Positions 7,863-53,425 of a stretch of DNA of 64,000 nucleotides are shown one piece after another. The position numbers and the translations under genes were made by a program. The DNA is from Azolla caroliniana (taxonomy: Eukaryota; Plantae; Polypodiophyta). Numbering within the stretch: position 1 is the stretch's first letter; each line of letters opens with the position of its first letter. The stretch lies in contig JBHGNT010000018.1 of NCBI GenBank assembly GCA_043228905.1, positions 11,904,001-11,968,000 on the forward strand. Direction: 5' to 3'. The notes beneath the pieces are model-generated. The model did not search any database and was not told the origin of the DNA. It saw only the letters and a program-made list of their open reading frames with translations.

Positions 7863-10800
7863 AACACCGGGTCATTTGAAACAGGTAATATGTCGCATTC
7901 TCTTTTTCATATCTTAGTGAGATGTTAAAAAATGCCTTATTTAAGCAGAATTTCAACAAGGCATGATGCATGTGTATGTGGTTTATGAAAACATAGCGAA
8001 AAAAAGAACTAACTAATATCACGTCAACAAAATCATCCGACGTATATTCTATCTACCATGTTTTTGTCCAAATCTTAGACATGGGTGTATTTGTCAACAC
8101 AAGTATAATAGTAACACGGGTCCTTGTGCATATTCTAAAAAGCATGCCCCATTGAATAAGTGACTTCTTCTAATTATGTGTGTATATTTAAATATAATAC
8201 ATCTTAAAGCAAATTGTGAACCTTGCAATTAAGAGATACTACTATGTCAAGAGAAAATTTCCATTGACACGTGATACATGACACTGTCAATGTATAAATA
8301 AACTAGTCTACAATAACATTCCAATCATACGAGTAAATGATAGAGTATAAACTTATCTCCAATATACCCCAAATGATAAAGGAGAGTTTAGATAACATGT
8401 ACACATACAAGTATACTTAATTTCTAAGTTCAATGATTGTTACACGAAAATTATAAGTAAGCTCAACTTATATATTACGTCAAAATTTAACAATTCATAT
8501 TGTTCAAAATTTACAATAAGCCATAACCATTCAATCGAATAATAAGTCTGGTAAAGCCGTCTACTCAGGATTAGCTCTTTCATCAGGATTGTCCTCATTG
8601 GCTTCGTCAGTACGCTAAGTTGAATTGTTAGTATGTTCAGACTTTGAAACGTCTTCTAATTCAACAAGTTGCCCTGCGTCTTCATCTATAGTTCCACAAG
8701 TTTTCTAAAAGTCATCTGGAACATCTAAGTTTTATTGATATGCTTTGCCCCAACTTCTTGGTCTTGATCAGGACAACCCCAGATACCTTGGATCCTCATT
8801 TTGATGACATTAACTTGCTCAAGGTCCTTCTCTAATGCAACAGAGTTCCTGATAATCTTTAAGGCGTATGTTTTAGTAGTACATGACAGTACAATGAAAT
8901 TGCACAGGTAACATCAAACTGAAGAATAGAATATAACGTTAATCTAAATTGATGTAAGTTTTATATTATATACCTGTGTTAGAAAACTAATCTAAAACCC
9001 ATTGAAAATTTGAAACAATAAAATTTGAAAAAATAAAAAATCTTGGATTTTTAATTGGAATCCAATGCGATGCACTAGATTTCAGTTGAAAATCCAAGTT
9101 TTTTTTTTTGTAATTTTTAAAAAAATTTCCATTAAAAAATAAAAAATGGATTTTCAGCTAAAATACTATGCACTACATTATATTTTAGTATATATAGATT
9201 AGAGTCGAAAATCCATTTTTCTTTTTTCTTTTTCCAATGTTATTTATTTATTTATTTTCCATATAAAAAAATAATAAACGGCTTTTCAATTGAAATCCGA
9301 TACACTACATCAGATCGTAGTCTATACAGCTAGACATTGATGCATTGCATCATATTTTAGCTGGCAATCCTCTTTCTTTTCAATTGTTTTTCATTTTTTC
9401 AAAAAATAAATAAAAATATATTAAAAAAGTGGATTTCCAACTAAAATCTAATGCACTACATCGAATTTCAATTAAAAATCAAAATTTCTTTTAGGTTTTT
9501 CATAAAACAATGAGATAATAAAAAAATATTACATTTTCAACAAAATCTGAACCATTGAGTCGGATTTCAATTGCAAATTAATGTTTTATGAAAAAACATA
9601 AGAAAAATATTGGACTTTCAACGCATCGGATTTCTGTTGAAACTCAGTGATTTTGAACGGAAATCCGATGTAGTGCATCGGATTTCCATTGAAAATCCTG
9701 TTGAAAATGATGTGTTTTCAACGGGAATCCGATGCACTGCATCGGATTCCCGTTGAAAACACATCATTTTAAATGGAGAATATCACAATTTGTTTATTTT
9801 TAACACTTTTTTAGAGAAAAATATAACAAATAAGAAAATTTGTAAACAAACAAGAAAAAGTGGACCTTCAATGGAAATCCGATGCAGTGCATCGGATTTC
9901 CGTTGAAAATCCATTTTTTTCAATTCCTATATATTTATTTATGATAAAAACAAAAACAATTCAAAACAAATTCAAAATATCTGAAAAATTGGAAACAAAT
10001 AAGACAAAATGGATTTTCAATAGAAATCCGATGTAGTGCATCGGATTTCTGTTGAAAACCCATTTTTTGCAATTTTTATTTATTTATTTATGGGAAAAAA
10101 TTTAAAAAAAAATTAAAAAATACAAAAAAATATTTTAAAATATGAAAATTTGGTAACAAATAGCAAAAAGTGGACTTTCAATAGTCGGATTTCCTTTGAA
10201 AATTCATTTTTTCAATTTCTATATAGTTATTTATGAGAAAATAGACAAACAAAATACCAAAAAAAATCTAAAAACTATGAAAATTTGGAAAAAAATAAGA
10301 AAAAGTGGATTTTCTATGGAAATCCAATGCAGTGCATCGGATTTCCATTGAAAATCTATTTTTTCAATATTTATTTATTTTTTATAGAAAAAATTCAAAA
10401 AAATTCAAAAAAATTCAAAAAAAAAGCAAATTTGGAAAAAAATACGTAAAAGTGGACTTTCAACCAAAATCCGATGCAATGCATCGGATTTCCGTTGGAA
10501 ATCCATTTTTTCAATTTTTATTTTTTTTTTTATGGGAAAAATAAAAACAAATTAAAAAACAATTCAAAAAATAAGAAAATTTTCAAAAAAATAAGAGAAA
10601 TTGGATTTTCAATTGAATCTGATGCACGGAATTGGATTTCCATTGAAATCTAATTTTTCAATTTTTATTTATTTATTTACGAGTAAAATAAAAAATGTTT
10701 ATTTATTTATTTATGGGAAAATGTTTTATTTTTTCAATTTGTATTTATTTATGTATTTTCGGGAAATCCATGCAATGTATCATATTTTAGTCTATGTAGC

Positions 10801-11733: not shown

Positions 11734-14700
11734 AGCTATGAAAGTCTAGTGAAGCCGCATATGTGCAGGAAGGTTAAGACAAAATGTTGCATCATTAATC
11801 CATGTTGTGATGGCAAAAGAACGTAAGCATTGATAATCGAGCCTAGCACACGGGCAGGTAGTCTTGATGTGATGACGAAGCAACCATACTCAGTCACCAA
11901 CCTTAAAAGGAGACTTAAGACGATGTCGATCGGCATTGGTCTTATGGTGTACTTGCGCTTTTTGAAGATGTGAAGATAATTCAAACTAGGTTTGTTGTAG
12001 TCAATGGAGGTGATGTGCCGCACTAGGGTTTCGGGACACCTCAGGGAGATCCAAGATACACCATCGAGGGTGGTTGCCAATGTAGGAAAAGAAAGGTGTA
12101 ACTTTTGTAGAAGAGTGTACCGTGTTGTTGTATGCAAACTCAGCAAGATGTAAAATATTGCTCCAATGATCTTGTTGATAATTGATGAAGCATCGAAGAT
12201 ACTGCTCGAGTGTTTGGTTTGTGCACTTTGTTTGTCCATCAGTTTGTGGATGATAAGCCGAAGAGAGTTTGCAGGAGATTTTGAAGCCTACCCATAGGTG
12301 CTTCCAAAAGTGTGAGATAAATTGAGGACCTTGATCACTGATAATATCATTTGGGAGACCATGATGGAGAAACACCTCACGCATAATAAGATCTGCAGTT
12401 TCTTCACTACTAATGGTCTTTACACATGGTACAAAATGTGCCATCTTTGTGAACCGATCCACTAATGTTAAAATACTATCAAAGCCTTTGGAAGGTGGCA
12501 GATCCATAATGAAATCCATAGAAATAGACTATCATGGCTTGTTGGGAGGTGGTAATGGTTGTAGTAAGCCATAAGGATGATGCCTGGGTATTTTGGCGCG
12601 CCAGCAGGTGTCACATGTGCGAACGTAATCTTCGACAAATTTTTGCACGTGAGACCACCAAAACGAACGTTTTACCAGTTCAATGGCCTTGGTTTTTTCC
12701 AAAATGTCCAGCCATGGGGGCATCATGACAATGTTCTAACACTTGAAGTCAGGGTGATCTGTTAGGGACGTAAAGGAGATTCGTATAGAAGAGTAAGCCA
12801 TCTTGCCACTTGAAGTCCTAATAATGTTGAGATGACCCTTGCAATGTGGAGCAAGATGGATGACTTGAACCAATGTGGGCTAAGACATCCTTAGCGAAAT
12901 CATCAGAGTGAAGTTGTTGTTGAATAGTGTCAAGAAGGCTAGAATCAAGTGGCGTGGCATAAATTGTTGTTGCCTGTAGCTTTGATGGCCCGAGGAGAAT
13001 CTGCTTTTGATTGTTGAAGGCCGTATCTCCAGGTCGAAGAGCTAGATACGAACGCCAAGACAAAGCATCTGCTTTTCCTTGTTTTCCAGGGCGAAAAATG
13101 ATCCTGAAATCGAAACGCGTTAGAAATTGGGCCCACGAGCTTGTCGTCTATTTAATACTCGAGTTGTTTGAAAATATGTGAGATTTTTGTGATCACTATA
13201 AATGATAATCTGATGAGGCAATCCTTCTAGAAAATGACGTCATTGCTCGAATGAGTCGACCACAGCTAGTAACTCCTTGTCATGCACCTCATAGTTTATT
13301 TCTGAAACAGTAAATTTTCTCAAGTGAAACGCAACTGGATGACTTTGTCCATCCTCGCTTGGTTTCAATAGGATACTCCCCAATGCGAAGTCTTATGCAT
13401 CCGCCTCAATAGTAAATGGCTTTTCGGGATCAATATGCGCTAGGATAGGTGTTGATGTGAATGCCTCTTTCAACTGAGTAAAAGCCTTATCCGCTTCAAT
13501 ACTCCAAAAAAATGCTTGATTTTTCTTGGTGAGTTGGGTGAGGAGCAACACAATGCTTGAATAATTATGTATGAATTTGCGATAGAAGTTTGCAAATCCG
13601 AGGAAACACTGGACGTCCCGAACTGAGCATGGGGGTTTTCCATTCCAATATTGTTTGGACTTTTGCCGGATCCATGAAAATACCCTTGGATGAAATAGTG
13701 TATCCCAAAAATTCGACTTGTTTGCAATCAAAACTGCATTTCTCAAGTTTGGCATAAAGACCATACTTTCTTAGGCGTTCAAGTACTTTCCGCACATGTA
13801 TATCATGCTCGTCCTGTGTTTTATAGTAAATCAACAGATCATCTAGGTAGATGATGAGAAAGATATCCAAGAAATCCCGGAAAATGTCATTTGCCATATG
13901 TTGAAATATTGCGGGTGCATTTGTGAGCCCGAAAGGCATGACTATATACTCGAAATGACCATACCGAGTACGAAATGCAGTTTTCCACTCATCTCCCGGT
14001 CGAATTCGAACAAGATTATATGCACCCCTTAGATCAATTTTGGTAAAATGCTTTGCCCCACCAATGTGTTCTAAGAGACTGGAGATTAAAGGTAGAGTAT
14101 ACCTATTCCTTATGGTGACTTTATTTAAGCCTCGATCGTCCACGACCAAACAAAGGGAGCCATCCTTTTTCTTCACAAAAAAGATAGGAGCTGGTGAGGA
14201 GACTTTGAATGTCGAATAAACCCATGTGCAAGATTTCCTCGATGTATTCTCGAAGAACCTCAAGCTCAGTGGGTGATAAATTGTAAATCAGACTCCACGG
14301 TGGCTCTTTTCCTGTTTGGAGATCAATAGGATAGTCGTACGACAGATGCTTTGGAAGAACCCTAGCTTTGACTTTGTCGAAAACATCAGCATAGTCTTGA
14401 TATTTTTTGGGAATTTGGATGTCGAAATTCCCTTGAGTGGCACTAGAAGGTGTCACTAATACTGCAAATAAGAAAAGGTTCTCCTTGCCTCCCACTTGGT
14501 GCAATTGTTGCAATGTGATGACTAAAATTTGATGAAAAGGAGATGGTGCATTGGTAGAACTATATTCTTCAAGAGAGTAATCCTGAGTTTGATCCTTGGC
14601 AATGATATTTTCTACTGAAGGGCACCAAATTTCTCGCTTCCTCCAATCGATTCTAGGATTATATAGCTCGAACCATGGCAAACAGAGGACAATTGGATGC

Positions 14701-16486
14701 TCAAGACTACGGATTATGTTAAAGGAAACTACACATCCTAAATCACCTAAGAGTATGTGTATTGGCTCAAACTCTTCAAATATCTTCCCGGAAGCTATGG
14801 GACGTCCATCAATCACTACTACAGAAACTGGACAAGGAAGTCTATGCAAGGACATTTGGTGTTTTTGGGAAAAATCTCTATCCATGAAATAAGAATTGGC
14901 TCTAGTATCTAAGAGGGCTTGGACTTGAAGTTGACAACTTGGTGTCCTAACTTGTACTTGGGTTGAGAAGACTCTACTAACATGCTTGGAAGAAATGGAA
15001 CCCACACTAGGTTGTACATATCTAGGGTTGTCCAACCAAATGGCTCCTATTTTGGCCAGACTTATTCGTTTGACTCCTCTTCTAATTGTCTTAGGACTTC
15101 AAACTTATTGGACAAGGGTAGATTATTCATAATATTAGATTCACTAACTGCTTCTAAAATGTTGGACTCATTTTTATTGTCATAGTGAATTTGATTTACC
15201 TGATGTCTCGGCCTACGGGAGCAATGAATGGCTATATGTCCTGGACCTCCACAATATAAGCACAGACGGTTTGCTCGGCGTCGTTGCTTCTCTTCATTCG
15301 ACAACGATCCTCGTCGTTGAGTGATATCAATCTCCATGGGTGTAGGATTATCCATTGGGACTGGACTACGTGTTTGCCTTGGAGTTGGAGCAAGGCTATA
15401 TGTTTGCGTTGGGGATTATTGTGCCGTTACTGATGCATAAGTTGGTGTGAATCGTGATCTTGTTATTTGTTGTTGTCACTCACATTGATGTTCAAAAAGG
15501 CGATTATCACACCATATTTCTCGACTAATAGCTTCTATAAGTGACCTTGGATCCTCGAGTTTTGACATCACTATGAAGGCTTGAATGGAATTGCTCCATT
15601 AGGGCTTGTTCATCCCAAGGAATATCGCTTGCGATGAGACGGAAATTGGCTGCATATGTCGAAGCTGGCTAATCACCTTGACGTAGTGTACGAATCGTGT
15701 TGATAGTTGTTCTCGCCCCATCAGTATCTCCGAAACAAGCCTTAAATTCTTTGATAAATTCCTCAAAATTATTCAGTAGAGGAGAATTTGTCTCTAACAA
15801 TGGAGCAAACCACGACAACGATATGCAGTCACTAAGGTGCCCACTAACCCGACTCATGATGCATTTGTCGGATAACATGTGGGATGCATTTGAATCACCA
15901 ACCGTACTTGATTCAAGAAACCTCGGAAATGCGGCCTCTAACCATCAAATTTAGCTAGGAGGCTAATTTTGGGCTCCTTGATAAGTCCTTGACCTTCGAC
16001 CCTTCGTTGTTCTAACACTACGATTGTTGACTCAAACTGTTGAACCCGTCGTGTGAACTCCCCTTGTTGTTGTTGCTTCTCTATAGTAACCTTTTGTAGA
16101 TCCCCAAGTAGACGTTGATTCTCTACTTCAAGAAATGCGAACTTGGATTTAAGATTCTCCATTTCTGCAACAAGGGTGAGATATTCTTCTGAGTTAATGG
16201 CGGCAATGGTTTCGTGATGGTTACAGAGGAGGATGAGAGAGAGAGAGAGAGGGAATTCGAATCAAACTGTCAGAACCAAGAATAAAAGATAGAGTGATGG
16301 AAGAAGGATATAACGGAACACGAGAAGAAATGAACGAAATGCTAAGAGAAGAATGGGTGTATTAAGATAAAGAAAGAAAGAGAATGGATACAAGATATGT
16401 GAGAGCTAAAGATTGGTGTTGATTCAAATTTATTTGAGAATACATGTATGCCCTTATTTATAGGCTCCTATAGAATAGCTTAGAGA

Positions 16487-16546
16487 TTTCTATAATGTTC
16501 TAGAATGTTCTAGGACATTCTAGAACATTCTAGAATGATCTAGAGT
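16487..16546. promoter_or_regulatory. Phased heat-shock element (nGAAn/nTTCn) array in LTR U3
   Basis: TTC/GAA alternate every 5 bp at 16498, 16503, 16508, (GGA 16513), 16518, 16523, 16528 and 16533, about 35-75 bp upstream of the TATA box. Confidence 0.75.
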
Positions 16547-16599
16547 TTTTACAATAATCAATCTAATACAAAAATTAGCTTTTATTCTCTCATATGACA

Positions 16600-16671
16600 A
16601 TAAGCTATCTTAATGTTTGAGGTTTTCAATTATGGATTACAAGGTTCGAGGTTCAAGTCCGGGTGACGCCA
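16600..16671 (+). promoter_or_regulatory. tRNA-like Pol III A-box/B-box cassette in the Gypsy-1 LTR, antisense to the element
   Basis: A-box-like TATCTTAATGT at 16606; B-box GGTTCAAGTCC at 16650-16660; spacing 44; ends ...GACGCCA. Confidence 0.6.
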
Positions 16672-16693
16672 TAATGGTCACGTGTTCATGACA

Positions 16694-16981: not shown

Positions 16982-19900
16982 TGTTGAGAGACAAGCTCAA
17001 CATTCGGTGCGAAGTATGCAACGTAACCCAGTGCGTAGACTGGGTGCGTGAAAAAGTACGCATAACAGGGCCGCATCGGTGTGAAAAATGAAGAGGCCAT
17101 TAGAGCGTTATTCCTCGTAAGGGAATAATTTTGGGAGTTTGTGTAGTCAGCTCATTTATGAGCATTCAAGTACTGTCAGTACTTGTGTCTGCCCGATTGT
17201 CAGGGCTTGTATAAAAGTTGCTCACTGAGCACGGTGTATGTACACAGAACAGAGTGTCATTATTTTGAATTCAAGTTTTCTGTTGTTTGCTCTCTCTCTC
17301 CATCTCCATCTCCATCTCCATCTTTGCGTTTCCTGTGTTTTACTGAATTGTCTTATTCCTCCGAACTGTGTACTCTGTGTTTTCGCACACGCTTCCGCAC
17401 AACATATTCTTTTACATGGTATCAGAGCGTGAGGGTTGAAGTCCTCTGCAGCCGACAAGAAAAGTTTGTGATGAAACAGAGTTGAAGTTGTTCGCTTTCG
17501 GAGAAGAAAAAGACAGTACTATGGACAAAGGAATAGGAAGCTCACTTCCGACTAAAAAGCTTGACAGAAGCAACTACGCATCTTGATCTTACAAGATGCA
17601 TCAGTACCTGCTCGGCCATGGCTACTGGAGTTATGTCAAAGGAGCAAACGATGTGGCACCCGACTCGACACACAAGGACTATCCGGCTTGGGAACAAGTG
17701 GCAAGCAGAGTTCTCTACTGCTTCGCGTCCTTTGTGAGCGATCAACTTTTGAGCTATATTCGGGGAGCCAAGACGTCAAAGGACATGTGGGTGAATCTCA
17801 AAAGGATTTTCGCCGCCAGCACAATGGCCAGAAAGCTGCAACTCAGACAGGAGTTCAACAATGTACGACAAAGAGATATGTCGGTGGCTGATTACACCAC
17901 CAAGATCAAAGAAATCTGCGACTCTCTCGCCTCCGTCAACGTGAACATCGAGGAAGATGAAATGTTGCAGGTCTGTCTTGGTGGCTTGGCGTCAAAGTTC
18001 GGACCTTTCCGAACGGCAATCTGCACGAGGGAGATTACGCCTTCGTTTTTCGAGCTTCAGTCAATGTTGCTCATAGAAGAAAACCACGCGGGTGCGTCGA
18101 CGAGTACGCACGCCGATGGCAAGATGCTTTACATGGAGAATGATAGGCCTCGTGGTCGTGGTGGACGAGGCGGATCGGCGCGCAATGGAGGCGGCCGAAA
18201 AGAGCACAATGTATGACATAATAGAGATGCCGGAAGCAATTCCGAACCCTCCACAAGCAGGGGGAGTCATGGTGGCGCCGGAAGACGGCAAGAGAAGACC
18301 GCGCCGGATTGCTGGTACTATGGCAAGAAAGGCCACAAGGAGAGCGAGTGCTTGAAAAAGCGACCCGATTCGGACAAAGCCGGATCGAGCCGAAGAGACA
18401 CAGAGAGGCGTCAGAGATCGCACTACGTAGAAGGCTCTAAACGACCCAGAAACAAACAGGCCCAGCCTTTGTAATGAAGCATAAGCCCAATTCTATGGCC
18501 ATGAACACCTCAATCAAGCGAGGTGTGGTATGTTGATTCTAGAGCATCAAATCATATGACGAGTCACGAGGAATGGTTCTCGTACATGGAGAAACCAGAA
18601 TCATAAGGAGTGGTCGAAACAGGAGACAACACTCCGCATACCATCGAACATGTCGGCGAAGTTCCTCTCAGCCACGTCGGGCAGAAAGGGAAGCTATTGA
18701 ACGTGTTGCACGTCCCAACAATAACCAAGAACCTAGTGTTGGTTTGTCAAATCGTCGACCAAGGTATGCAAGTTCGAATCACGCATCTCGGTTGCTTCAT
18801 AGAAGAGGAAGGCAAGGTAATCGCGCAAGGGCGCCGTGAAGGGAGGATGTTTATCCTCGACATTAATCAAGCCGGAACCGCGTTGTACGCGAAAGGACAA
18901 AGGGTCGAATCAGATATCAACCTGAGGCACAAGCGGTTCGACCACGTAAATTTCCCACGGCTTCGTGAAATGCAGACGAAGAACATTGTTTTTGGGTTGC
19001 CGAAATTTCGTGGTCGGAATGGCCAAGTTTGCGAAGCCTGTCAGATGGGAAAACAGCACCGGCTTCCATTCCCCAACGAGCGTAATCGGAGCCGTAATCC
19101 GCTCAATTTGATCCATTTGGATGTGTGTGGTCCGGCGCAAAATGGGAGTCTTGGTGGAAGTCGTTACTTTGTAACCTTCATCAATGATTTCACTCAACAC
19201 ACGTGGGCATACACGATCGCAAAGAAGAGCGAAGTTTTCGCATGTTTTTTGGAGGTGAAGAGCCCCGCGGAAAGGGAAACAGGGCATAAAATCAAATGCC
19301 TACGGTCCGATGGCAGGAAGGAGTACTTCTCTGACCAGTTCACATGTTATCTACGAAAGGAGGGAATTCGACGCGATTTCTCATGTAGATATACGCCAGA
19401 GCAGAACGGCGTAGCCGAGCGGAAGAATCAGATGATTGAAGAAGCGGCTCGGGCAATGCTCGAAGAGAAGCATATGCCAAAATTTTATTGGGCTGAAGCC
19501 GTGAAGATGGCTATCTACTTGCAGAATCGGACTTCTGCCAATGGAGGAGTGTCGCCACATGAGTTGTATTTCGGGAAGAAGCCGAACTTGGCACACTTGA
19601 GGATTTTCGGTAGCATTGCGTATGTGCATGTGCCGAAGGAGAAGAGGAGGAAGATAGATGCCAAGGCCGAGAAATGTATATGTTAGGAAACAGGTCCCTT
19701 CAGATGGGAAATGAGAAGAATCGTGTTGATGAGCAACTCGGCCGAGGCCGATAGGCGTCGACCGAATCCGGAAGACCCGGTGAGAACAAAATGTGGAGTA
19801 CCCAGCAACGGAAGACCCGGTGAGAACCGGATGTGTAGTACCCGGCAATAAAAGACCCGGTGAGAACCGGATGACGAGTACCCAGCAAGGAAGACCCGGT

Positions 19901-22900
19901 GAGAACCTCTCATCGGATGGAAGGGACATATATGTAAATATGTTCCAGAGAGCCCACTAGGGCTATATTTGTAAATAGCCCGAAAGTCATATTAGTATAA
20001 ATATGACCTAGGGCAAACTTAATAATGAAGTATAGAGTTATTGGTGTAACTTCTGTACAATGCGTAAGAGAGAGAGAGAGAGAGAGAGATACAGAGATTG
20101 TGTCTCTGTTGTAACCGCCGCTAGGCGAAGATTGAGAGCAAGGGGTCGGTGCCTCTGTGCTCCCTATTGTATTACTTTCCATAGTGATAGTTTGGAGTTT
20201 GTGGACTCCCGTGGTTTTTCCCTCTCAGGGTTTTCCACGTTAATATCTTGTATATTCTCTTTCTGTTTTGTGTACTTACCTCCATTCCCATTTCGTCTGT
20301 GTTTTGATTATCATCAAGAGATCTACGTTTCGGTTGTGGCCGGAGATTAATCCGCGTATTCCACGTCAGTATCTTGGTTGGCTATTCAAACGATCAAAAG
20401 GGGTATAAGTGCTATAACCCACAAACAAAGGAAGTACGCGTAAGCCGCGATGTTGTATTTGACGAGTCCGCTTCGTGGTACCTACCTTCTCCTCCAGAAT
20501 CTCATGACTCCATTCCGATTTCTGAAGAAGACATCAACAAGGCTGAAATGCCTCCCCATGATGACGACATCGGAGCTTTGAGAGAGAGTTCGATCTCATT
20601 TTGGCTAAGCGGGCCGAATGAGGGGTTGGGCCGAGATGGCCAACCAGATGATGAGATGGCCAGTAGTGGAGACTCGGCCATGCATTCCCCGCGCAGGAAG
20701 CCAAGGAGACGGCTTACGCGCAAGGACAAAGGCAAGAAGAAAATGACGGAATACGACTTCGGTAGTGCTGAGTCAGATCCGAGCGAGTCTGACTACGGGC
20801 AAACTGAGAAGGAACCTCCACGGAAGAGGTCAACAGTAGCCGAAAAGGTCATGAAATCGGGTAATCACGAATTACGCTGATCTACCCGCCTCAAGAACCC
20901 CGTAAAGAGATACGGGTATAATAAGTACATGGTGCACCATTACGCATACATGACACAAGTGGCGGAAGTGCGTGAGCCGGAGAACTACGCAGAAGCGGCG
21001 TAGGACGCAAATTGGCGTGCTGCAATGGAGGAGGAAGAGATGCGCGCATAATTGGAGAATGAAACCTGGGACCTAGTTGACACACCGAAGGGTGTAAAGC
21101 CGATCGGATGCAGATGGGTGTATAAAGTGAAATACAACACCGATGGCTCTGTCAACCACTACAAAGCCCGTTTAGTAGCTCAAGGCTACGCGCAGAAGCA
21201 CGACGATGACTACCATCCGTGTTTGGCTCGCAGTAGCCGCGGCAAAGGGGTGGCACTTACCTCAAATGGATGTAAAGAACGTGTTCCTACAAGGTAATCT
21301 TCATGAACAGGTGTACATAGTACAGCCCCCCGGATTTCTATCCGAACAAAATACCTTGGCAGTTTGCCGATTGAAGAAATCCTTATACGGACTAAAGCAA
21401 GCCCCACGAGCTTGGAACGCAAAGATTACGCAACAGTTGCGTAGGATGGGGTTTGCGTCGTCGAAATCGGACTCTTCTCTATTTGTTTGGCAAGGTCAAT
21501 ATGGACCGGTTAGCCTGCTCTTGTACGTTGATGATTTAGTCATTGCCAGTGCCGACCTTGATGAAATCCACTACGTGAAGTCTCAACTTGCGACATCGTT
21601 TGAAATGAAGGATCTCGGAGACCTTCATTAATTCCTCGGGATCGAAGTGATCCGTACGCCCGAAGGCATATTGATCAGTCAGCGCGCGTCATTACGCGTT
21701 GAATATGCTCTTCAAGTTCGGGATGGAAAATTGTAAGCCCATCTCAACCCCTCTGGATAGAAACGCAAAGCTTCGCCGAGATTGGGGAAAGGCATGTGAC
21801 CCAACACGGTTCCAACAGATTGTCGGGAGCCTTATCTATGACTGAACACTTTCAGTGCGCACAATGGATACTGCGTTATGTCAGCGGCACGAAAGACATG
21901 GCGTTGTTTTATCGGGCAGGCGTAGCCGAACAGTTAGTCGGCTACACGGATGCCAATTGGGCTGGAAACGCCCACGATCGTAGATCCACATCTGGATACG
22001 CATTCTCTCTAGGAAGTGAGGCGATCGCGTGGAGCAGCAAAAAGCAACCGACAGTAGCACTGTCGAGCACGGAGGCCGAATATCGAGGGGCTATTACGGG
22101 ATCTGCAAGTAGATGTGTCTGATCCGACAACAATCTTTTGTGACAACCTCAGTAGTATCCACCTTGCGAAGAACCCCGTTTTCCACGCCCGGACCAAGCA
22201 CATTGAGGTGCATTACCATTTTGTCCGCAAGCGGGTCTTTTCAGGTGAAGTCAAACTGATGCATGTTCCGGCTGATCGGTAGATTGCCGACATCTTCACC
22301 AAGCCTCTTGGTCTCGATAAGTTACAGCATTTCTTGGGTGAGCTTGGGTTGTGTCACCTCGACACGCCGAACTTGAGGGGGAGAAAGGAAGATGAACAAG
22401 AATAAGAGCATGAAAAGAGCGGAGGTGTTCATCACGGCGGAAGTGAGCGTGATGAGGAATCGGATGAAGAATTCGATTTCGGACCGGCTGAAGAAGCCGA
22501 AGAAGAAAGCAAGGTCTACAATCGTAGGGAAGAGCCGAGGACAGCCAAATCAGGGGGAGATACAGCCAAGAAGGGCGTAAAGGCCAAGACCAAGACGTGG
22601 TTTGATGTAGTCAAAGGCATAAAGACAGGGGACGAATTGGAGACAACCAATTCGAATGAGAGCGGAATTTAATCGAAAGCGTTCGATTCAATCGAAATGT
22701 TCGATTCAGATACGCCAAATCAACTGAAGGCATGCCGGAAAAAGGGCAACGAAGGACGCGTCGACACCGCGACAGCAAGGGAGCTAAGAAGGGCCGAACG
22801 AGTAGACAAGCCAACCGAAAGGGTCAAAGCGCGTGGAATAGAACGGGTCGAGGAGTGCGAGCGAGGCGTGAACCCAGAAGGAACCGGAGCCTAGATCCAA

Positions 22901-23367: not shown

Positions 23368-23714
23368 GGTTATTTGCAGTAGAAAGGAATTTTGTTGATC
23401 ATACGATCGTCGACAAGGAGTGCGAATGGTGTATCATCGGTGCACGGCTTGGAGAGCATGAGAGAGAGAGAGAGAGAGAGAGATTAAACCTTGATAACTT
23501 AAATTATTATAGGGATTAATTAAAACTTAAACATAACTAAAAGTATAATGAGAAAGGGAGAGAGGGCTAGCCATTAAGTATTAATTAAAAAGACTAAAAC
23601 AAATGTTACTAACATGTTAAGAGAGAGAGAGAGAGAGAGAGTGTGAGAGAGAGTGATTAAGAGCAAAGCTATTACTAATTATCATTAAGATTGAAAAAGA
23701 AATTACATGGGGAT

Positions 23715-23773: not shown

Positions 23774-23862
23774 TAGGGGTGGATACATTTATATAAGGAG
23801 TTTTAGGAGAGGATTTAGAGAAATGACAATAGGGAGTGGGGGTGTGTGCTTATGGATATGAT

Positions 23863-26429: not shown

Positions 26430-29400
26430 TTATCTGGGCGAAGAAGATAAAGAAGAGTTCGGTACTCGAGATGAGAGTTTGATGTCATTCCGGCTAAGTG
26501 GGTCAAATGAAGAGCTGAGTCGGAAAGACCAACATGATGATGAGTCGGTAAGTAGTGGAGACTCAGTTGTACTCTCCCCGTGCAAGGAACCGAGGAGACA
26601 ATTCACATGTAAAGACAAGGGGAAAAAGAAGATGTCGGAATACAATGTCGTGACGTGGCTCACCTAGAAGCGTAGCATTGCGCACACAAAGGATAACGTG
26701 AAAGTGAGGAAGGAATCACTGGGATTATGGATGGAAGAGACGAAAGAGTAGAGATGGAGTGAATAGAGATCAATAAGATATGACAAAATAGGATTTTTAA
26801 GGAATATAAGATAAGACAAGATAAGATATAAACTAATATATGAGAAAGTGTATGAAATTTATAATCATTTTCATGAAAGAGTTACAAAATGATTGTGCAC
26901 GTCGTTGAACCTCCGAACTTTGTCTTGCAAGGTAATCGCTCTTCTCTTTCTTGATCGTAGACCACTACAATCTTCTCTTCAAGATTTTGATGAAGATAAG
27001 GCTCGAACCGCCTCCCTCTTGTTGAGAGTTGACCACCACGACCGCCAAGCTAGAGCTCCACGTTTATGTTAAACTTCTTCCCTTCTTTATCTATTTTTAT
27101 GATTATCTCTTATGTAATACATAATTTGATTGATATCTCATACATCTTCCTTTGATCTTCTCTTTCACCATTTAAATAGGTGCCCCCATGCATATGATGC
27201 ATTGGAGGGTACAAGCCATGCATGTAGTGCATGAAATGCATGTGATGCATGATCGCCATTTGGCGTTCATGCATTACATGTGATGCATGATAAACATCTC
27301 ACTCATTTCAGCTTTCATGTATGAAACAATATATGCAATAACAATAAACATGAAAATATAATCTTAAAGAGAAAGGACCTAGCCTAATGGTAGGTGTGTT
27401 GACTTTGGTGTATGAAGTTGTGGGTTTGAGTCTCAAAATACTATTGAATACAACATACAGCTTTATTTTTATATCATGAAGCAAATCCTTTATATAATAT
27501 AAAGTATATATAAAGTATGCTTTATTTTATGTACATTACTAGTATAGAGTAAATGGTAAGATTTGAGAGTCATAGGATGGGGTTATTGGTTCAAGTCCTC
27601 TCTTGTTCGTGTAATATAATATATTTATCTATATATATATATATATTATTTTTCTTTACATATATATAAATTTATCATATGTGTTGTTAATATTATCTTT
27701 ATATATAAAACATTATCAAATGTTAGTTTAGTTACGTATTTATCTTATTGTAGACTTTTAATGTGAAGCTTTCGTACTTCACGACAACGACACCAGTAGA
27801 GATGAGTCTAATCAAAGAGAATCCGACTCTGGAAAGAATGAAGACGGACCTTCAGAGAAGAAGTCCGAATCGGCCAAGAAATTGGCTAACGAGAAGTTAC
27901 ACCGATCTAACCGCCAGAAGAACCCCGTCAAGCGGTACGGTTATAATGAATACATGGCGCATCACTATGTGTACATGATGAAAGTGGTGGTAGTGCATGA
28001 GCCGGAGAGCTACATAGAAGCAGCAAAAGACACAAACTAGCGTGCCGCGATGGAGGAAGAAATGCGAGCCTCGATGAGAATGACACATGGGATCTGGTTG
28101 ACCCTCCCCAACACTACAAACCAATCGACTGCAAGTGGGTATACAAGGTAAAGTATAATCCCGACGGTTCGGTCAACCAATGCAAGGCCCAGCTAGTGGT
28201 GAAGGGATACGCACAGAACCACAAAATCGACTATGACGAGACGTTCACTCCTGTAGCAAAGATGATGACGGTCCATGTGGTGTTGGCGGTTGTTGCGGCA
28301 AGGGGGTGGCATCTTCACCAAATGGACATAAAGAATGCATTTCTTCAAGGCGATCTTGAAGAACAATTCTACATGATTCAACCCCCTGGGTTTTAGTCAG
28401 AGATGAACAAGTCGGTAGTGTGCTGACTTAAGAAGTCGCTCTATGGCCTGAAGCAAGCTCCCCATGCTTGGAAGTCGAAGATAACACACCGGTTGCGTAA
28501 GATGGGGTTTGCGGCCTCGAAGTCCAACTCTTCATTGTTCATCCGGAGAGGTCTGGAATGTTCGGTGTGCATCTTGCTATACGTGGATGATCTAGTCATC
28601 ACCGAACCTATACTCACTGAAATCAGTTGAGTGAAGTCCCAACTGTTGGATGCATTCGAAATGAAGGACTTGGGGACCTTCATTATTTCCTCGGGATCGA
28701 AGTGATCCATACTCCCGACGGCATATTTCTCTCACAGCGATACTATGTGTTGAGTATATTGTACAAGTTCCGACCAATCTCTACACCCTTGGACCGAAAC
28801 CTGAAGCTTCGTCCCAACTCTGGACCGGCCTGCAATGAGAGACGGTTCCGACAAATTGTCAGAAGTCTTATTTACTTAATTATCATCCAACTCGACATCA
28901 GCTATCCAGTTGGAGCGACCAGTCAATTCATGCAAAAGTTGACCGACCAACACCTTCAATGCACGCATCGACTATTGCGATATGTGAGCAGCACTAAGGA
29001 TAGGGAATTGTTATATTGCCACGGTATAACCAAAATGCTAATCGGTTATAAAGATGTTGATGGGGCCAATGATGCATCAGATCATCAGTCCACCTCCAGT
29101 TTTATGTTCTCTCTTGGGAGCACGGTTGTTGCGTGGAGCAGCAAAAAGCAGCCGATAGTGGCTCTATCGAGCACTGAGGCTAAGTATCGGGGAGCTATTG
29201 TTGCCACCTATAAGGACATATGGCTTTGGTGGCTGCTGCAAGACCTCTTGATCAAAGTACCAACTCCTATCCCGATCTACTATGACAACATGAGCAGTAT
29301 GCAGCTTGCCAAGAATCCCATGTTTCATGCTTGCACAAAGCACATCGAAGTGCATTATCGCTTAGTGCATGAGGGGATCATGAGCGGTGAAGTTGAGCTA

Positions 29401-45600: not shown

Positions 45601-48385
45601 TCTTTCATTAAGGCTAGGTTGTGGCATTTCTTCTTTCTTCTTTGAAACATTGTTTGCTGCCATTCACGGATTGAGTACCAAACATCCTAGGTATATTCCC
45701 ATAAGACCCACATGTTATGAGCTTTGGGATAGTTTTCTTGTAGATGTTCCTCCATAAATAGTGATATTTTCGATCCTTATTAAAAGTCAATACAACTTAC
45801 TTTGTGCATAATTATATGGTCACTTTCACAACTATACCATCCCCAACAATTATATTTCTTTTGTTTGAAAGGATTTGATTCACAACATGTCTATAATGGG
45901 AAAAATAAAATAACGCTGGAGTTCTTCCCTAATCTCATTAAAACTTGGGTAAAGTCCCCAAATGCTCCTTACAAACGTGTTGTGAATCATGATGACAAGA
46001 TAAGCTCCCTAGTTACAAAAGACAATTTTTTATCCAAAACGCTAGTATAAATAAACAAAAGAATACAAATAATCCTTGTCTAAAATAATAGTTATCTTAT
46101 GGAAAATAAATATTGTAACTTATTATTAGATAAAACTTTGTGGAAGAACCCATGCATCAAAGTTTAAACTTTGTTTTGTGATCTATTTTACCACACAAAA
46201 CACAAACCGTAAGGGTCTATTGCATAACCTTCTCGTTTTAGACGGACAAACATATCAATTGAGCTACAACCAATTTAGGGCCTTTAGTCTCTCAAATGAC
46301 AATAAACCCCCAATGTTTTTAAGTTGTGACGTGCCATTAAGGAACCAAATAACTTACGGTCATATAAACAACATATGGTTCATCAAAATTTCTACTTCTT
46401 CTCAACTTTTTTATGAGCTCTTAAAATTTGTCCAACTTTTCTAAGGCCTTTGGTCTCCCACACAATAAGTAAACCCTACATTTTCATGATGCTAGATCAA
46501 ACTGCCACATCCTCCCAAATTTTGAGCAATTTCTTAAGAGCACTCAATTCCTCCAACCTTTTCAAGGTCTTTGGTCTTGGCATTGGGATTTGGTCCACTA
46601 ATACCTAAAATTCAAAGCATTTGGAAATTGTGTAAGCTTTGGTCATCCAACACTTCTATTGAACCATTCATCAGTTTCAATGCATTCATCCTATCATTTG
46701 GTTCACATCAAAATAGTGAGTCTCTTCTTTTAAAGATATAGTCATGTACTACCTTAGTTCTTTGTGGCTTGAGCAAAAATACTCGATCAATTGGGCTCCA
46801 CTTAGCTCGTTGGTAAGAATCAATAATGTTGTATGTTCTTGGTCATATTTGAACTCGAGACCTCGTGGCGTTCGGGTTGACTATAACAATCAAGTAGGCA
46901 GATGGTTTTGTACACACTCCTTGAAGAAATTTTAAGCGAAAGCATTAAACACCTGAGCTAACCAAATAGGTTGCTCGTATTGAACGTTTAATTTATATGT
47001 GTATGAGGGATATGTGAATGCATTTACCTATATAAGTTTTTTAAAAGAAAACATGTGTCTAGAAACCTTATTTCCCCCTCGTTAACAAGAAAACTCTATT
47101 GGTATGTTACCCAACCTCAAGTCTCATCATTAGGATGACATACCCCAAAGTGCAACCTAATCGTCAGGCCACACGAGCCCCACATGGCCCATCACATGGT
47201 TACGTCCTTACAAATGCCTTCCGTAATGATGATCTCATGGTGGCATCGTAACCATGTAATGAGCAAGGAATGTTGGATGCGTGTCATACGGGCGACCTCA
47301 CATGAAGCGTGTCATACTGGCTCCCCGTGGATCCGATTCTTCGATCCAAGCCGATTGGTCTTTTCATTGGATCGGGCTCTCGGCTTGTTCAACTGATCCG
47401 GCCCATGTTGAGCTTGCTTTTCAACACTCCCCCTCAAGCTCAACTTGAGGTTCCATCTGATCTGCCGGTTCCTTCCCTCCTCACACCCCTTTGGTCCAAG
47501 GCACCTGGACCCTGTCACGCCACAACGATGTCAAATACGTAGTCAGTGAGGATTGAACCTGCAACCTCACAGCTACAAGATGTCATGCTCAACCATTTTG
47601 ATATGAGCATGCATTTGTATATGCATGGTTTAGTATTCTATAGTCTAGCATATAGTACATTTTAGAATCAGAATATTCTAGTCAGTAGTATATTCTAGAA
47701 ATATTGTACGACATATTCTAAAGATATTTCTCGAGTATATTCTAGAGATATTCAATCTTGGAACATGTATAAATACTTGTAACCTCCTTGGTCCCTTCAA
47801 GGGATTCAACACCAGTCATTGACACATCAATCTAGTATTCTCGTTTCGCCTCATCTTTGTCTCCTTGATCTTTATTTCTGTCTTCATGCCCTCATGTCGT
47901 TCACAACATCTAGAGTTCCTAGCCTCGTCACATCTAGCTCCAAGTTCATCCATCGCTCGTAGCCCCATCATCTACGGTCAGTCCTAGTTCACGCTTTTGG
48001 TGTGTCCGTGATTGTTTGAATCCCTTCCAACTGGAAGTACCACCCGTCTTCGTCATCGCCTTTGCTTCTAGAGTTACCATCATCACCATCCTTGCTTTCA
48101 GAGTTACCGTCATCAACATCCTTGTCTTCGACATCATCATTTTCAGTACCTCTTCGCCCAACCATTGTCGTCATCAACACTACTTGTCATCATTTTTAGT
48201 TATCATTTTGCATCATGATTTTGGTGAGGAGTGCTTTTGATTGCTCACCTTCCCAGTTCCAGTGGGGGTCACAACCACTCACTTTCCTAGTGGGGATCAG
48301 ATCATTGTTCGCTTGCACTGTATTTTCGTTGTAGTTCAAGTCTCGTGCCATTTTCTGTTGGTGAGGACTGATTTTGATCGCTCAC

Positions 48386-51300
48386 TATCAGAACCAAGAG
48401 AGAAGATAAAATGATAGAAGAAAGATAAAAAGCTAGGAGCACCAACTGGAGACTTTGAATGTCAAATAAATCCACTTGCAAGATTCTCGTCAATGTATGC
48501 TGGAAGAACCTCAAGCTCCGTTGGTGACAGATTGTAGATCGGACCTCATGGTGGCTCTTTTCCTAGTTGTAGATCAATGGGACAATCATATGGCCGATGC
48601 TTTGGAAGTACACTAGCTTTGACTTTGTTGAAGACATCAACATATTCTTGGTACTTTTTAGGAATGTAGACCTCTGACTTCCCTTGAGTGTCACTAGAAG
48701 GTGCAACTGATATGGCAAACAAGAATAAATCTTCTTTTGCTCCTTCTTGGCATAATTGTTCTAGGGTGATGATTGAAATTTGATGAAGAGGAACAACATG
48801 TTTGGTAGAGGGTGAATTGGTAACACTATGTTTTTCAAGGAGAGGATCCTGGGTTCGACCCTTGACTACTATGTTTCCTTTTGAAGGGCACCTAATTTCT
48901 CGTCGTCTCCAATCAATTCTTGGGTTGTGTAGCTCGAACCATGGCAAACCAAGGACTATTGGATGCTTAGGGCTACGGATTATGTTAAAGGAGACCACAC
49001 ATCCTAAATCACCTAAGAGTATGTGTATCGGCTTAGACTCCTCGAATATCTTTCTAGAAGCTATGGGACGTCCATCAATCACTACTATGGAAACTGGGCA
49101 AGGAAGTTTATGCAAGGCTATTTGATGTTTTTAGGCAAAATCTCTATCCATGAAACAAGAATTGGCTCTAGTATCTAAGAGAGCTGGGACATGAAGTTGA
49201 CAACTTGGTGTCCTAACTTGTACTTGGCTTGAGAAAACTCTATTAACATGCTTGGAAGAGATGGAAGCCACACTAGGCTGTATTAAAGAGATGGAAGAGA
49301 AGGTAAAGTGATAGAAGAAAGATATAAAGAGATCACAAGAAGAGGAATGAGATGATAAGAGAAGAATGAATGTATTAAAGTAGAATAAGAATGGATACAA
49401 GATAGGTGATGAGAGCTTAAGACTGGTGTGGTAAGGTTCCAAAAGAGAGTTGTGAAAGACTGGATGAAGCCGCAAACTTGCAGGAAGATCAAGACGGAAT
49501 GTTGCATCATTAATCTGCTTCGTGATAACAAAAGGACCCAAGTGTTTATAATCTAGTTTATCACACGGTCGAGTAGTCTTTATGTGACGATGTAACAACC
49601 ATACCCGATCACCAATCTTGAATGGAGACGAAAGACAATGTCGATTTGCATGGGCCTTATGTTGGGCTTGAGCTTTCTGAAGATGTGAAGACAACTCAGA
49701 CTGAAGGTGTTGTAGTCGGTGGAGGTGTTGCTCTGCACTAGGAATTGGTAAGATCACTGGAATGTCCAAGAGACACCATTGAGGATGGTTGCCAGTATAG
49801 GCATAGAAAGGTGTGACCTTGGTAGAAGAGTGTATGGTGTTATTGTATGCAAACTCTGCAAGATGCAATATATGACTCCAATCATCTTGTTGATAACTAA
49901 TGAAACATCAAAGATACTACTCAAGTGTTTGATTTGTGTGCTCTGTTTGGCCATCAGTTTCGGGATGATATGTTGAAGAGAGTTTGCAAGAGATTCGGAG
50001 CCCGTCACATAGGTGCTTCCAAAAGTGAGAGATAAATTGTGGTCCACGATCACTAATTATGTCATTTGGAAGACCATGATGGCAAAATACTTCACGCATA
50101 ATGATATTTGTTGTTTCTTGACTATTGATGCTTTTTACGCAGGGTAGAAAATGTGCCATCTTGGTAAACCGATCCACTATGGTTAAAATAACATCAAAAC
50201 CTTGTGAAGGTGGCAGATCTGTAATGAAATCCATAGTAATTGACTGCCATGGCTTGCTCGGAGTCGGCAATGGTTGTAACAACCCGTAAGGATGATGCCT
50301 AGGCATTTTAGTTCGACAACATGTGTCACATGTGCGAACATAATCTTCAACGAATTGTTGTAAATGAGGCCACCAAAATGATCGCTTCACTAGCTCCATG
50401 GTCTTGGCAATACCAAAGTGCCCTGCCAATACGGGCATCATGACAGTGCTCCAACATTGGAAGGCGTGGTGATCCATCAGGGACATAAAGTAGATTCTTG
50501 TAGGAAAGTAAGTTATCTTGCCACTTGAACTCCTTATAGCGTCGAGATGTCCTTGGCAATGTGGAGCAAAATGCATGATTTGAACCAAGGTGGGTGAAGA
50601 CATCCTTAGCAAAATCATCAGAGTTAAGTTGTTGTCAAATAGTATCAAGAAGACTTGAATCCAATGGCGTGGCACAAACCGTGGTTGCTTGTAGCTTTGT
50701 TGGACCAAGGAGAACTTGCTTTTGATTGTCGAAAGCTGGATCTCCAAGGCGAAGTGCCAAATATGAGCGTCGAGATAGAGCATATGCTTGCCCTTGTTGG
50801 TTGCCTGGGCGGAAAATGATATTGAAATCAAAACGAGTTAAAAATTGCGCCCACCGAGCTTGTCGCCTATTTAGCACTCAAGCTGTCTGAAAATATGTAA
50901 GATTTTTGTGGTCACTATAAATGATGATTTGATGAGGCGAACCTTCCAGGCAATGTCGCCATTGCGCAAAAGAGTTGACCACAGGTAGTAACTCTTTGTC
51001 ATGCACCTCGTAGTTGATCTCCGCAACATTAAACTTTCTTGAGTGAAATGCGACTGGATGTAAGTGCCCATCTTCACTTGGTTGTGATAGGATGCTCCCC
51101 AATGCAAAGTCGGATGCATCTGCCTCAATGATAAATGGCTTTTCTGGATCAACATGAGCTAAGACAGGAGCTGATGTGAATGCCTCTTTCAATTGAGTAA
51201 AGGCTTTGTCTGCTTCAGGAGTCCAAAAAAATGCTTGATTTTTCTTGGTGAGTTGAGTAAGCCGCAATACAATCTTTGAATAATTCCATATGAATTTGCG

Positions 51301-52650: not shown

Positions 52651-53425
52651 CAGTGCTGCAATTCCCATCCACCCCTACACCACACTTTCGAAAAGGCAGC
52701 TGTGAAGGGGAGGATATGCCATGACACAACGATGTCAAATACGTAGTTAGTGAGGATTTAACCTACAACTCACAACTACAAGATGTCATGCATGCTTTAG
52801 TATTCTATAGTCTAGCATATAGTACATTTCAGAATCAAAATATTCTAGTTAGTAGTATATTCTAGAAATATTGTACGACATATTCTAGACGAGTATATTC
52901 TAGAGATATTGAATCTCAAAACATGTATAAATACTTGTAACCTCCTTGGTCCCTTCAAGGGATTCAACACCAGTCATTGACACATCAATCTAGTATTCTC
53001 GTTTCCCCTCATCTTTGTCTCCTTGAACTTTATTTCTGTCTTCATGCCCTTGTGTCGTTCACAATATCTAGAGTTCCTAGCCTCGTCACATCTAGCTCCA
53101 AGTTCATTCGTCGCTCGTAGCCCCCTTGCGCTCCGTCCTAGTTCGTGCTTGGTGTGTCCATGACAGACCCCTCCGGGTTTGTGCACCTCAACTCCTTTGG
53201 TCACCTTGTCTCCTTGTCCGGTTGGTCGTCATATGATTCGTCTCATCCAAATCAAGCCACTCGACCAAATCAGTTATCTCTGATTCGTTATCCTTCTTTA
53301 GACCCTTGAACACATCCGACTATGACTTGGTCCTGGCCTTTCTCTTTTGGTCGACTCTATCCTTCTTGACTCTGCCGCCTTTGCCGTATGTTCCGACTCT
53401 ATTGGATGTTTCTACTTCCTCAGTA

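What the first reader, a model, noticed from the sequence alone, without database searches (positions are those of the whole stretch)
16600..16671. Outward-facing tRNA-like Pol III cassette at the U3 edge, recurring in three distinct LTR families
Seen: an A-box-like motif and a B-box at tRNA spacing (43-44 nt) occur here (TATCTTAATGTTTGAG...AGGTTCGAGGTTCAAGTCC), at 47550-47603 and twice at 27380-27598. All are antisense to the element, and the sequence between the boxes is divergent. The layout is always LTR edge / tRNA-like cassette / TF-motif array / TATA. Known: B-boxes recruit TFIIIC, and tDNAs act as heterochromatin barriers in yeasts; small-RNA-derived LTR segments are known in TRIMs such as Cassandra (5S). 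Inference: these retroelements, including a coding chromovirus, carry a built-in Pol III insulator or antisense promoter that protects an inducible Pol II promoter.
Basis: partly seen in the sequence, partly recalled or inferred. Interest (0 to 1): 0.85.

Follow-up and report, generated by a model that had tools for sequence, protein, structure and literature searches.

The report
Backward tRNA promoter guards retrotransposon edge
A lineage of protein-coding plant jumping genes keeps the two promoter boxes of a tRNA gene, back to front and at fixed spacing, at the outer edge of its terminal repeats while the DNA around them diverges, which likely marks a binding site for the RNA polymerase III factor TFIIIC that would shield the element's own promoter from silencing.

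Summary
The A-box/B-box pair at 16606-16660 is part of a high-copy LTR family. It lies antisense, 33 nt inside the U3 edge of a self-priming, Tcn1-like chromovirus. Among related metagenome loci, 35 of 40 close relatives carry the pair and 0 of 28 more distant ones do. Across 21 cassette-bearing LTR families, the boxes, the extended B-box (GTY) and the 43-44 nt spacing are kept. The spacer is at background identity. tRNA stems and a terminator are not kept, and the neighbouring enhancer arrays are swapped. This pattern is what selection on a DNA site read by TFIIIC would leave; it does not fit a SINE insertion or a tRNA-like RNA. The window's own family carries a second antisense pair in-frame in pol. 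The function (barrier or open-chromatin boundary) is inferred and untested. tRNA boxes in LTRs are known from Helenus (sense, non-coding TRIMs); ten literature searches found no antisense case in coding elements. The scan noted backward tRNA relics before, in fungal Gypsy elements of other genomes.

The parts
16268..16693 (-). 5' LTR of element A (Tcn1-like chromovirus), TG...CA, 426 nt; high-copy family
   Evidence: (depth falls from tens of thousands to 10-30 beyond about 16705; loose ends at 16693)
16606..16616 (+). A-box, antisense to element A; the T at 16616 is private to this copy (more than 99.7% of laid depth reads G in 4 of 4 runs)
16642..16660 (+). Extended B-box: AGGTY (tRNA positions 44-48) plus core B-box 16650-16660, ending 33 nt inside the LTR edge
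   Evidence: matches the published extended consensus GTCnnnnGTTCRAnYC
16545..16598 (.). AT-rich tract between the cassette and the enhancer, where TFIIIB would load (inferred)
   Evidence: mean 78% AT over 20 families
16498..16535 (-). Array of GAAnnTTC dyads (heat-shock-element pattern, recalled); densest 200-nt bin of the window
   Evidence: 5 dyads
16455..16462 (-). Pol II TATA box of LTR A
16419..16430 (-). Self-primer in R, complementary to the PBS (12 nt in relatives, 7 nt unbroken in this copy)
16251..16267 (-). Self-priming PBS; not complementary to a tRNA 3' end
11739..15600 (-). Broken gag-pol of element A (RT, RNase H and integrase pieces), 3'-truncated
   Evidence: 87-89% DNA identity to intact L001 and L004
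14544..14596 (+). Second antisense A/B pair inside the protease-RT linker, on an in-frame extension found only in family A
47513..48013 (+). 5' LTR of element C (47513-53164, TSD GACCC, self-priming PBS)
47549..47603 (-). Antisense A/B cassette of LTR C, spacing 44, ending about 35 nt from the edge
52717..53164 (+). 3' LTR of element C, 93% identical to the 5' LTR; A-box deleted, B-box mutated
48809..48862 (+). Internal antisense A/B pair in the protease-RT linker of a second family-A-type copy nested in C
26648..27787 (-). Solo LTR D inserted in a Copia element; CATGCA-rich array; lineage not determined
   Evidence: contigs join 26643 to 27800 across the empty site
27380..27433 (+). Antisense A/B pair D1 (B-box has C56>T), 354 nt from the LTR edge
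   Evidence: multi-copy depth
27545..27598 (+). Antisense A/B pair D2, 189 nt from the LTR edge
26999..27052 (-).

Best explanation
A lineage of self-priming, chromodomain-bearing Gypsy retrotransposons keeps a tRNA-type A-box and extended B-box, antisense and 43-44 nt apart, at the outer U3 edge of its LTRs, and this pair is likely a TFIIIC/TFIIIB assembly site that would act as a chromatin boundary for the element's own Pol II promoter. Shown: position, orientation, spacing, fixation in the family, selective conservation of the boxes, loss of tRNA stems, swapping of the adjacent enhancers, and intact gag-pol in carriers. Inferred, step 1 (about 0.85): the boxes are read as DNA by TFIIIC and come from a captured tRNA gene or SINE head. 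Inferred, step 2: because the cassette is antisense, TFIIIB would load on the AT-rich tract between the boxes and the enhancer array, and TFIIIC would sit between the flanking DNA and the promoter. Inferred, step 3 (about 0.5): this keeps the enhancer and TATA region accessible and limits spreading of silent chromatin from the repeat-rich sites these elements occupy. Any antisense RNA would be a by-product.
For: Box conservation in 21 families: T54, T55, A58, G46, T47 21 of 21; C56, G53, G45, G19, T16 20 of 21. Mean pairwise identity is 0.87 (positions 44-48), 0.71 (B-box) and 0.61 (A-box), against 0.31-0.35 for the anticodon arm and flanks. In a free search 22-90 nt upstream, the best A-box includes 43 or 44 nt in 20 of 21 families, uniquely so in 16, while the edge distance varies 15-62 nt and the A-box-to-TATA distance 114-208 nt. 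The extra GTY matches the extended B-box GTCnnnnGTTCRAnYC that isolated Dictyostelium B-boxes also carry (PMC3159450 passages). G53, T55, C56 and G57 are among the bases human TFIIIC contacts (PMC11811891 section 8; numbering converted by me). The sense strand scores at background. Carriers have uninterrupted gag and pol with a chromodomain, a TATA box and a 12-nt self-primer that covaries with the PBS, so Pol III is not their main promoter. Heat-shock-type and CATGCA/GCCAAGTGGC arrays replace each other behind an unchanged cassette. Family A gained a second antisense pair in-frame in pol. The moss chromodomain element RLG1 sits in heterochromatic islands yet is transcribed (PMC7466625 passages). 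TFIIIB/TFIIIC barriers are described in yeast (PMC9540200 passages).
Against: No binding, chromatin or expression data were available. The passages read from the plant barrier review give TFIIIC/tDNA barriers only for yeast and animals. C61, a contacted base, is kept in only 15 of 21 families. CAA at -10..-1 occurs in 4 of 20. L028 lacks the cassette, and L027 and L044 have decayed ones; L027 still has a 1211-aa pol ORF, so the cassette can be lost. 0 of 28 more distant loci carry it. The 21 representatives were picked as carriers and are related, so their counts are not independent. Acceptor-stem pairing shows a small excess (67 of 147 vs 54.9, p=0.007 with G-U; p=0.06 without). Most carrier contigs have neighbouring accession numbers and may come from few host species. 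Strict 43-44 nt spacing is tighter than TFIIIC is thought to need (recalled).
Confidence: 0.5

Rival explanations
1. The cassette is a Pol III promoter whose antisense RNA or act of transcription matters. From the 3' LTR it would read across the PPT into the integrase end and limit copy number or seed small RNAs; or it would dampen basal activity of the adjacent Pol II promoter, as yeast tRNA genes do (recalled).
For: Both boxes and an AT-rich upstream tract (mean 78% AT) are kept, so initiation is plausible. The PPT and pol stop lie within tens of nt of the B-box in 3' LTRs. Foamy viruses use Pol III units in U3 to make miRNAs (PMC3993851 passages).
Against: No conserved terminator: a T4 run lies inside the LTR in 6 of 20 families, predicted lengths run from 71 to about 590 nt, and 2 families have no T4 in the stretch examined. 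The transcribed spacer is at background identity and shows no T-, anticodon- or D-stem covariation when G-U is counted.
Confidence: 0.22
2. The motif works on the genomic RNA: its sense strand is complementary to the D and T arms of host tRNAs, which would anneal there to help packaging, dimerisation or strand transfer, like the 3' part of the Ty3 bipartite primer site.
For: Antisense orientation at the 3' end of the RNA fits. Ty1 and Ty3 use sites complementary to the TPsiC and DHU arms of tRNAiMet (PMC4974528 passages). The colinear, native tRNA spacing is kept.
Against: These elements self-prime. Wobble-tolerated changes are almost absent: no G>A at G18, G19, G45, G46 or G53, and no T>C at T47, T54 or T55. 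A58 is invariant, although m1A58 cannot form a Watson-Crick pair (recalled). Bases that would pair with one specific tRNA are not conserved. The site also occurs twice in solo LTR D and inside pol.
Confidence: 0.1
3. TFIIIC binds, but for genome positioning or integration, for example tethering cDNA or inserted copies to Pol III/condensin foci or serving as a landing pad for further copies.
For: TFIIIC organises chromatin at extra-TFIIIC sites (PMC11811891 passage). Dictyostelium TRE5-A integrates upstream of B-boxes.
Against: A, C and D sit in Copia-like or other repeat sequence with no tRNA gene in the window. An A-box is not needed for that kind of site, yet it is conserved here.
Confidence: 0.1
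4. The cassette is a passive relic of one old SINE or tRNA capture, or of repeated captures, carried along without function.
For: Losses and decayed copies exist (L027, L028, L044, L045; 3' LTR of C). One carrier (L040) lies outside the main clade.
Against: Neutral decay cannot leave several positions invariant while neighbouring positions are at background identity and integrases have diverged to a median 68% identity. CpG is kept at 56-57 in 13 of 21 families against a CpG observed/expected of 0.37 nearby. Recent recapture would leave intact stems, which are absent.
Confidence: 0.08

Closest known systems
Helenus (TRIMp3; Kojima 2024, PMC10886601; parts 1-4 of 6 of the text, searched passages and one supplement search read)
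   Same: tRNA-derived sequence inside the LTR, conservation concentrated on boxes A and B, no functional tRNA; one plant case (Selaginella).
   Different: Helenus elements are non-coding TRIMs of 311-1263 bp with a tRNA-primed PBS. The Selaginella and bivalve LTRs shown carry the tRNA-like part in sense, and the paper takes it to be the element's own promoter. Here the boxes are antisense, at the U3 edge of elements with full gag-pol, a TATA promoter and self-priming. The paper calls sharing of LTR sequence between TRIMp3 and autonomous elements unlikely; it also says 'not a few' Repbase LTRs have tRNA-like parts and followed up only the TRIMs.
Cassandra and Ajax TRIMs (as described in PMC10886601)
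   Same: Pol III promoter from a small-RNA gene embedded in the LTR.
   Different: 5S-derived (box A, IE, box C), non-autonomous; for Cassandra it drives the element's own transcript.
Tcn1 clade of chromoviruses (PMC6317226 and PMC2864245, passages)
   Same: Gypsy domain order with chromodomain, self-priming PBS, LTRs of about 420-470 nt, seed-free plant host.
   Different: The passages read mention TATA and CAAT boxes in the LTR but no Pol III boxes. Membership was not placed against reference Tcn1 sequences.
Foamy virus Pol III miRNA cassettes in U3 (PMC3993851, passages)
   Same: Pol III A/B boxes inside the U3 of an autonomous retroelement that also has a Pol II promoter.
   Different: Those units have terminators and hairpin products (miRNAs); here neither is conserved.
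tDNA/TFIIIC chromatin barriers and extra-TFIIIC sites (PMC9540200, PMC11811891, PMC3159450, passages)
   Same: The proposed mechanism, and the extended B-box consensus.
   Different: Known as host chromosomal features in yeast, animals and Dictyostelium; here the site would be carried by the mobile element itself, in a plant.

Membership tests
Helenus / TRIMp3 | tRNA-derived A and B boxes inside the LTR | tested here: met
Helenus / TRIMp3 | Non-autonomous TRIM of about 1.3 kb or less, no coding capacity | tested here: not met
   Carriers have gag of 330-450 aa and pol of about 1200-1245 aa
Helenus / TRIMp3 | PBS complementary to a tRNA | tested here: not met
   PBS is complementary to the element's own R region
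Helenus / TRIMp3 | Pol III boxes in sense, able to transcribe the element | tested here: not met
   Antisense in 21 of 21 representatives, sense strand at background; Helenus examples seen are sense (not all families inspected)
Tcn1 chromovirus | PR-RT-RH-INT order with C-terminal chromodomain | tested here: met
   Pfam on L001, L004, L016, L040; window copy A is truncated before the chromodomain
Tcn1 chromovirus | Self-priming in place of a tRNA PBS | tested here: met
   11-12 nt R/PBS complementarity that covaries between families, in 5 of 6 loci examined and in element C
Tcn1 chromovirus | Phylogenetic placement with reference Tcn1 elements | not testable with these tools
   No reference set available; the tree holds only fetched loci
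Functional tRNA gene | Cloverleaf with paired stems, detected by tRNA finders | tested here: not met
Independent SINE insertion | Own TSD or tail, absent from other LTR copies, extra copies outside the LTR | tested here: not met
   Depth even across the LTR A cassette, no listed joint skipping both boxes; D cassettes multi-copy; not tested for C
TFIIIC chromatin barrier | TFIIIC occupancy and block of silencing spread | not testable with these tools
   Needs ChIP and reporter assays

The most novel reading that the evidence does not exclude
A whole clade of heterochromatin-targeting plant chromoviruses has domesticated a tRNA-gene promoter as a portable TFIIIC boundary. It is kept through tens of enhancer swaps and was gained a second time inside pol, so each new insertion brings its own anti-silencing insulator, and thousands of solo LTRs would seed TFIIIC sites across the host genome. 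It would be the first tDNA-type barrier in plants and a cis counter-silencing strategy for retrotransposons.
Probability: 0.4. Interest if true: 0.88.

Novelty: new variant of a known kind. Interest (0 to 1): 0.74.

Why it matters
Chromoviruses are thought to insert into heterochromatin yet must stay inducible there, and how they do so is open. A conserved, compact, mutable cis-element at the LTR edge makes that question testable with one point mutation. It also gives a natural candidate for a TFIIIC-type barrier in plants, where the review passages read cite none, and possibly a transgene insulator. It extends Pol III boxes in LTRs from non-coding TRIMs to autonomous elements, in the opposite orientation and with a different likely role.

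Tried and rejected
No whole genome is held for this window, so copies were studied through sequencing-run contigs and metagenome loci. ARAGORN at 100% and 90% threshold finds nothing; at 80% it gives 33 calls over the window, including 47537-47611, 26989-27060 and 48805-48873, too noisy to use. Rfam E-value scans of the window and of the three sites gave no tRNA hit. Two scans of viral contigs found no relatives; genome contigs gave 3 distant elements without the cassette. No RNA holder was listed. One run guessed to be RNA laid only 4 contigs on LTR D; neither result says anything about expression. (internal cassette by tblastn anchor) was mis-anchored and was replaced. LTRs C and D have no full-length match among the loci, so C was not tested at family level and D's lineage is unknown. 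The stem test has no positive control: only 2 real tRNAs were in the loci. The within-family polymorphism test is weak: 1 of 88 sites at 16606-16693 vs 26 of 338 elsewhere (p=0.025), but p=0.15 for the A-B span alone, and contigs break at variants. The host is not settled: the window's O-fucosyltransferase exon hits two fern proteins at 58-59%, which supports a seed-free land plant only. The idea that the B-box pairs with the self-primer in R was dropped: family A's primer is not complementary to it.

Full report
Setting. The window is a nest of Copia, Gypsy and LINE remnants around a fragmented O-fucosyltransferase gene. That gene's best hits are two fern proteins at 58-59%, so the host is taken as a seed-free land plant, not further resolved. 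The reported site lies in the 5' LTR (16268-16693, minus strand) of a broken Gypsy element A. From the U3 edge the LTR reads: B-box, A-box (both antisense), AT-rich tract, five GAAnnTTC dyads, TATA, self-primer, pyrimidine-rich U5, and then a PBS complementary to the element's own R region. Self-priming is reported as typical of the Tcn1 clade among plant chromoviruses (PMC6317226, passages).

Observation. The four box pairs are present at 43-44 nt spacing and exceed local shuffles: perfect B-boxes 6 vs 0.83, strict pairs 5 vs 0.07, 0 of 200 shuffles reaching either. A loose definition is not significant (24 of 200). No tRNA finder calls them. Element C (47513-53164, TSD GACCC) has the same layout in its 5' LTR and a deleted A-box in its 3' LTR. 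Solo LTR D has two antisense pairs further from the edge and one sense pair.

Family level. Contigs of four DNA runs (at most 3 samples) laid on LTR A give summed depths of tens of thousands across the motif array, the cassette and up to 16693, falling to 10-30 outside. No listed joint skips both boxes. The A-box mismatch at 16616 is private to the window copy. The depth is not a copy number, but the cassette is clearly part of a high-copy LTR and not a private or free SINE. D's two cassettes are likewise multi-copy, and contigs bridge D's empty site.

Lineage level. An integrase-chromodomain alignment fetched 76 metagenome loci, the best of 473 confirmed relatives. 68 of the 76 include at least 100 nt of 3' LTR. 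Scoring the antisense strand as A mismatches plus twice the B mismatches, with a cut-off of 6, 35 of 40 loci in the close group pass and 0 of 28 in the distant group (grouping set by me from identity and contig series). Clustering at 80% gave 34 LTR clusters. I took 21 cassette-bearing representatives: 20 from loci (including L020, short; L034, start set by hand; L039, called by eye at score 8) and LTR C. Non-carriers were left out of the conservation counts. On an integrase tree (FastTree, 47 rows, rooted arbitrarily on L078/L079, labels by eye) a clade with support 0.999 holds 27 carriers, 2 decayed and 1 without among 30 scorable tips. Outside it are one carrier (L040), one B-only (L045) and 12 without. 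Carrier integrases are 41-99% identical (median 68%). Both LTR copies carry the pair where two are assembled (L001, L002, L016). Carriers have uninterrupted gag and pol with a chromodomain. Most carrier contigs have neighbouring accession numbers, so host breadth is unknown.

What is conserved. Information is confined to the A-box (T8, A14, T16, GG), AGGTY at tRNA positions 44-48, and G53-A58. Pairwise identity is 0.87, 0.71 and 0.61 in these parts and 0.31-0.35 in the anticodon arm and flanks. Spacing is 43-44 in 20 of 21 under a free search, while the distances to the edge (15-62 nt) and to the TATA box (114-208 nt in 14 measurable families) vary. The GTY extension equals the extended B-box GTCnnnnGTTCRAnYC described for intragenic, external and isolated B-boxes in Dictyostelium (PMC3159450, passages), which favours protein readout of DNA. 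Stems are not maintained: T stem 31 of 63 pairs vs 31.3 shuffled; anticodon stem 41 of 105 vs 36.2; D stem 48 of 84 vs 45.6 (Watson-Crick only, p=0.047); acceptor stem 67 of 147 vs 54.9 (p=0.007; Watson-Crick only, p=0.06). The acceptor signal may be residue of ancestry or one of ten tests. A T4 run lies inside the LTR in only 6 of 20 families. Behind the cassette, heat-shock-type arrays (for example L002, L011, L016, L023, L024, L040, L058) and CATGCA/GCCAAGTGGC arrays (L006, L010, L012, L014, L017, L039) replace each other; the motif names are recalled.

A second cassette. Family A (L001, L002, both L004 units, and both window copies) has another antisense pair, spacing 42-43, on an in-frame extension of the protease-RT linker. 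The other 26 linkers printed score 6 or worse and lack it. Coding constraint may contribute to its conservation. It suggests a second capture or a duplication.

Mechanism. The pattern is that of a type-2 Pol III promoter selected as DNA (about 0.85). The elements already have a TATA promoter and need kilobase transcripts, so the cassette is not their main promoter. Its orientation would put TFIIIC towards the flank and TFIIIB on the AT-rich tract beside the enhancer. I therefore favour a boundary or open-chromatin role (0.5 overall) over a functional antisense RNA or dampening (0.22), tRNA pairing as in Ty3 (0.1), positioning or targeting (0.1) and a passive relic (0.08). None of these roles was tested directly.

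Literature. Ten full-text searches returned Helenus/Ajax/Cassandra, foamy-virus Pol III miRNAs, Tcn1 surveys and TFIIIC barrier work, but no report of antisense A/B boxes conserved in coding chromovirus LTRs. Papers seen: PMC10886601 (parts 1-4 of 6, passages, one supplement search); PMC11811891 (section 8, passages); passages only of PMC2864245, PMC6317226, PMC13437025, PMC3993851, PMC7466625, PMC9540200, PMC4974528 and PMC3159450; all others as search listings. The library lacks most subscription journals and Repbase Reports. The Helenus paper notes unstudied tRNA-like parts in other Repbase LTRs, and unread supplements of the Tcn1 surveys could bear on this, so prior notice cannot be excluded. 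Two earlier scan notes describe backward tRNA-like pieces in fungal Gypsy elements; I did not test them.

Verdict. The feature is real, lineage-wide and under selection. It is a new variant of Pol III boxes in LTRs, and its barrier function is likely but unproven.

Noticed in passing
window 14544-14596 and 48809-48862; L001 2953-3005, L002 2653-2706, L004 1010-1063 and 6334-6386: Second antisense A/B pair on an in-frame extension of the protease-RT linker, only in family A; the B-box falls on conserved R-T-Q codons.
   Followed up: partly
window 26999-27052 (-): A/B pair in sense orientation downstream of the TATA box in solo LTR D.
   Followed up: no
window 26648-27787: LTR D shares only a 26-27 nt enhancer motif with carrier loci L008, L009, L017 and L018. 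Contig depth peaks over its CATGCA array, so the module is shared by other families. Loose ends at its U3 edge do not look like the chromovirus PPT. It may belong to another Gypsy lineage, such as the PPT-less one noted elsewhere in this genome.
   Followed up: partly
window 48448-51876: Rearranged family-A-type copy nested in element C: a 435-nt inverted duplication (96%) in which the integrase end is joined directly to R-U5, with the chromodomain and U3 missing.
   Followed up: partly
window 52027-52662: Tandem array of 46-48 nt units just before the PPT of element C; C shows no coding region of its own in the parts read and may be non-autonomous.
   Followed up: no
L004, L016, L017, L019, L007: Elements joined head to tail through one shared LTR (a 3' LTR followed by a PBS and gag); real tandem arrays or assembly collapse.
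   Followed up: no
L012, L014, L016, L017, L039 R regions: The self-primer sits in a small hairpin and itself resembles a sense B-box with one mismatch; probably coincidental.
   Followed up: partly
window 58584-58644 (-): Weaker A/B pair (spacing 50) inside another LTR element (58122-61340).
   Followed up: no
window 23708-23774 (-): Weak Rfam hammerhead HH9 match (24.9 bits, gathering score 52, E=0.076); likely chance.
   Followed up: no
window 9028-10787 and 1-733: Satellite-like arrays with units of about 148 nt (palindromic core) and 52 nt.
   Followed up: no
window 16983-23368: Copia element with tRNA-Met-type PBS and TSD GGTTA, inserted about 290 nt from LTR A; its LTR scores at background for A/B boxes.
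   Followed up: yes
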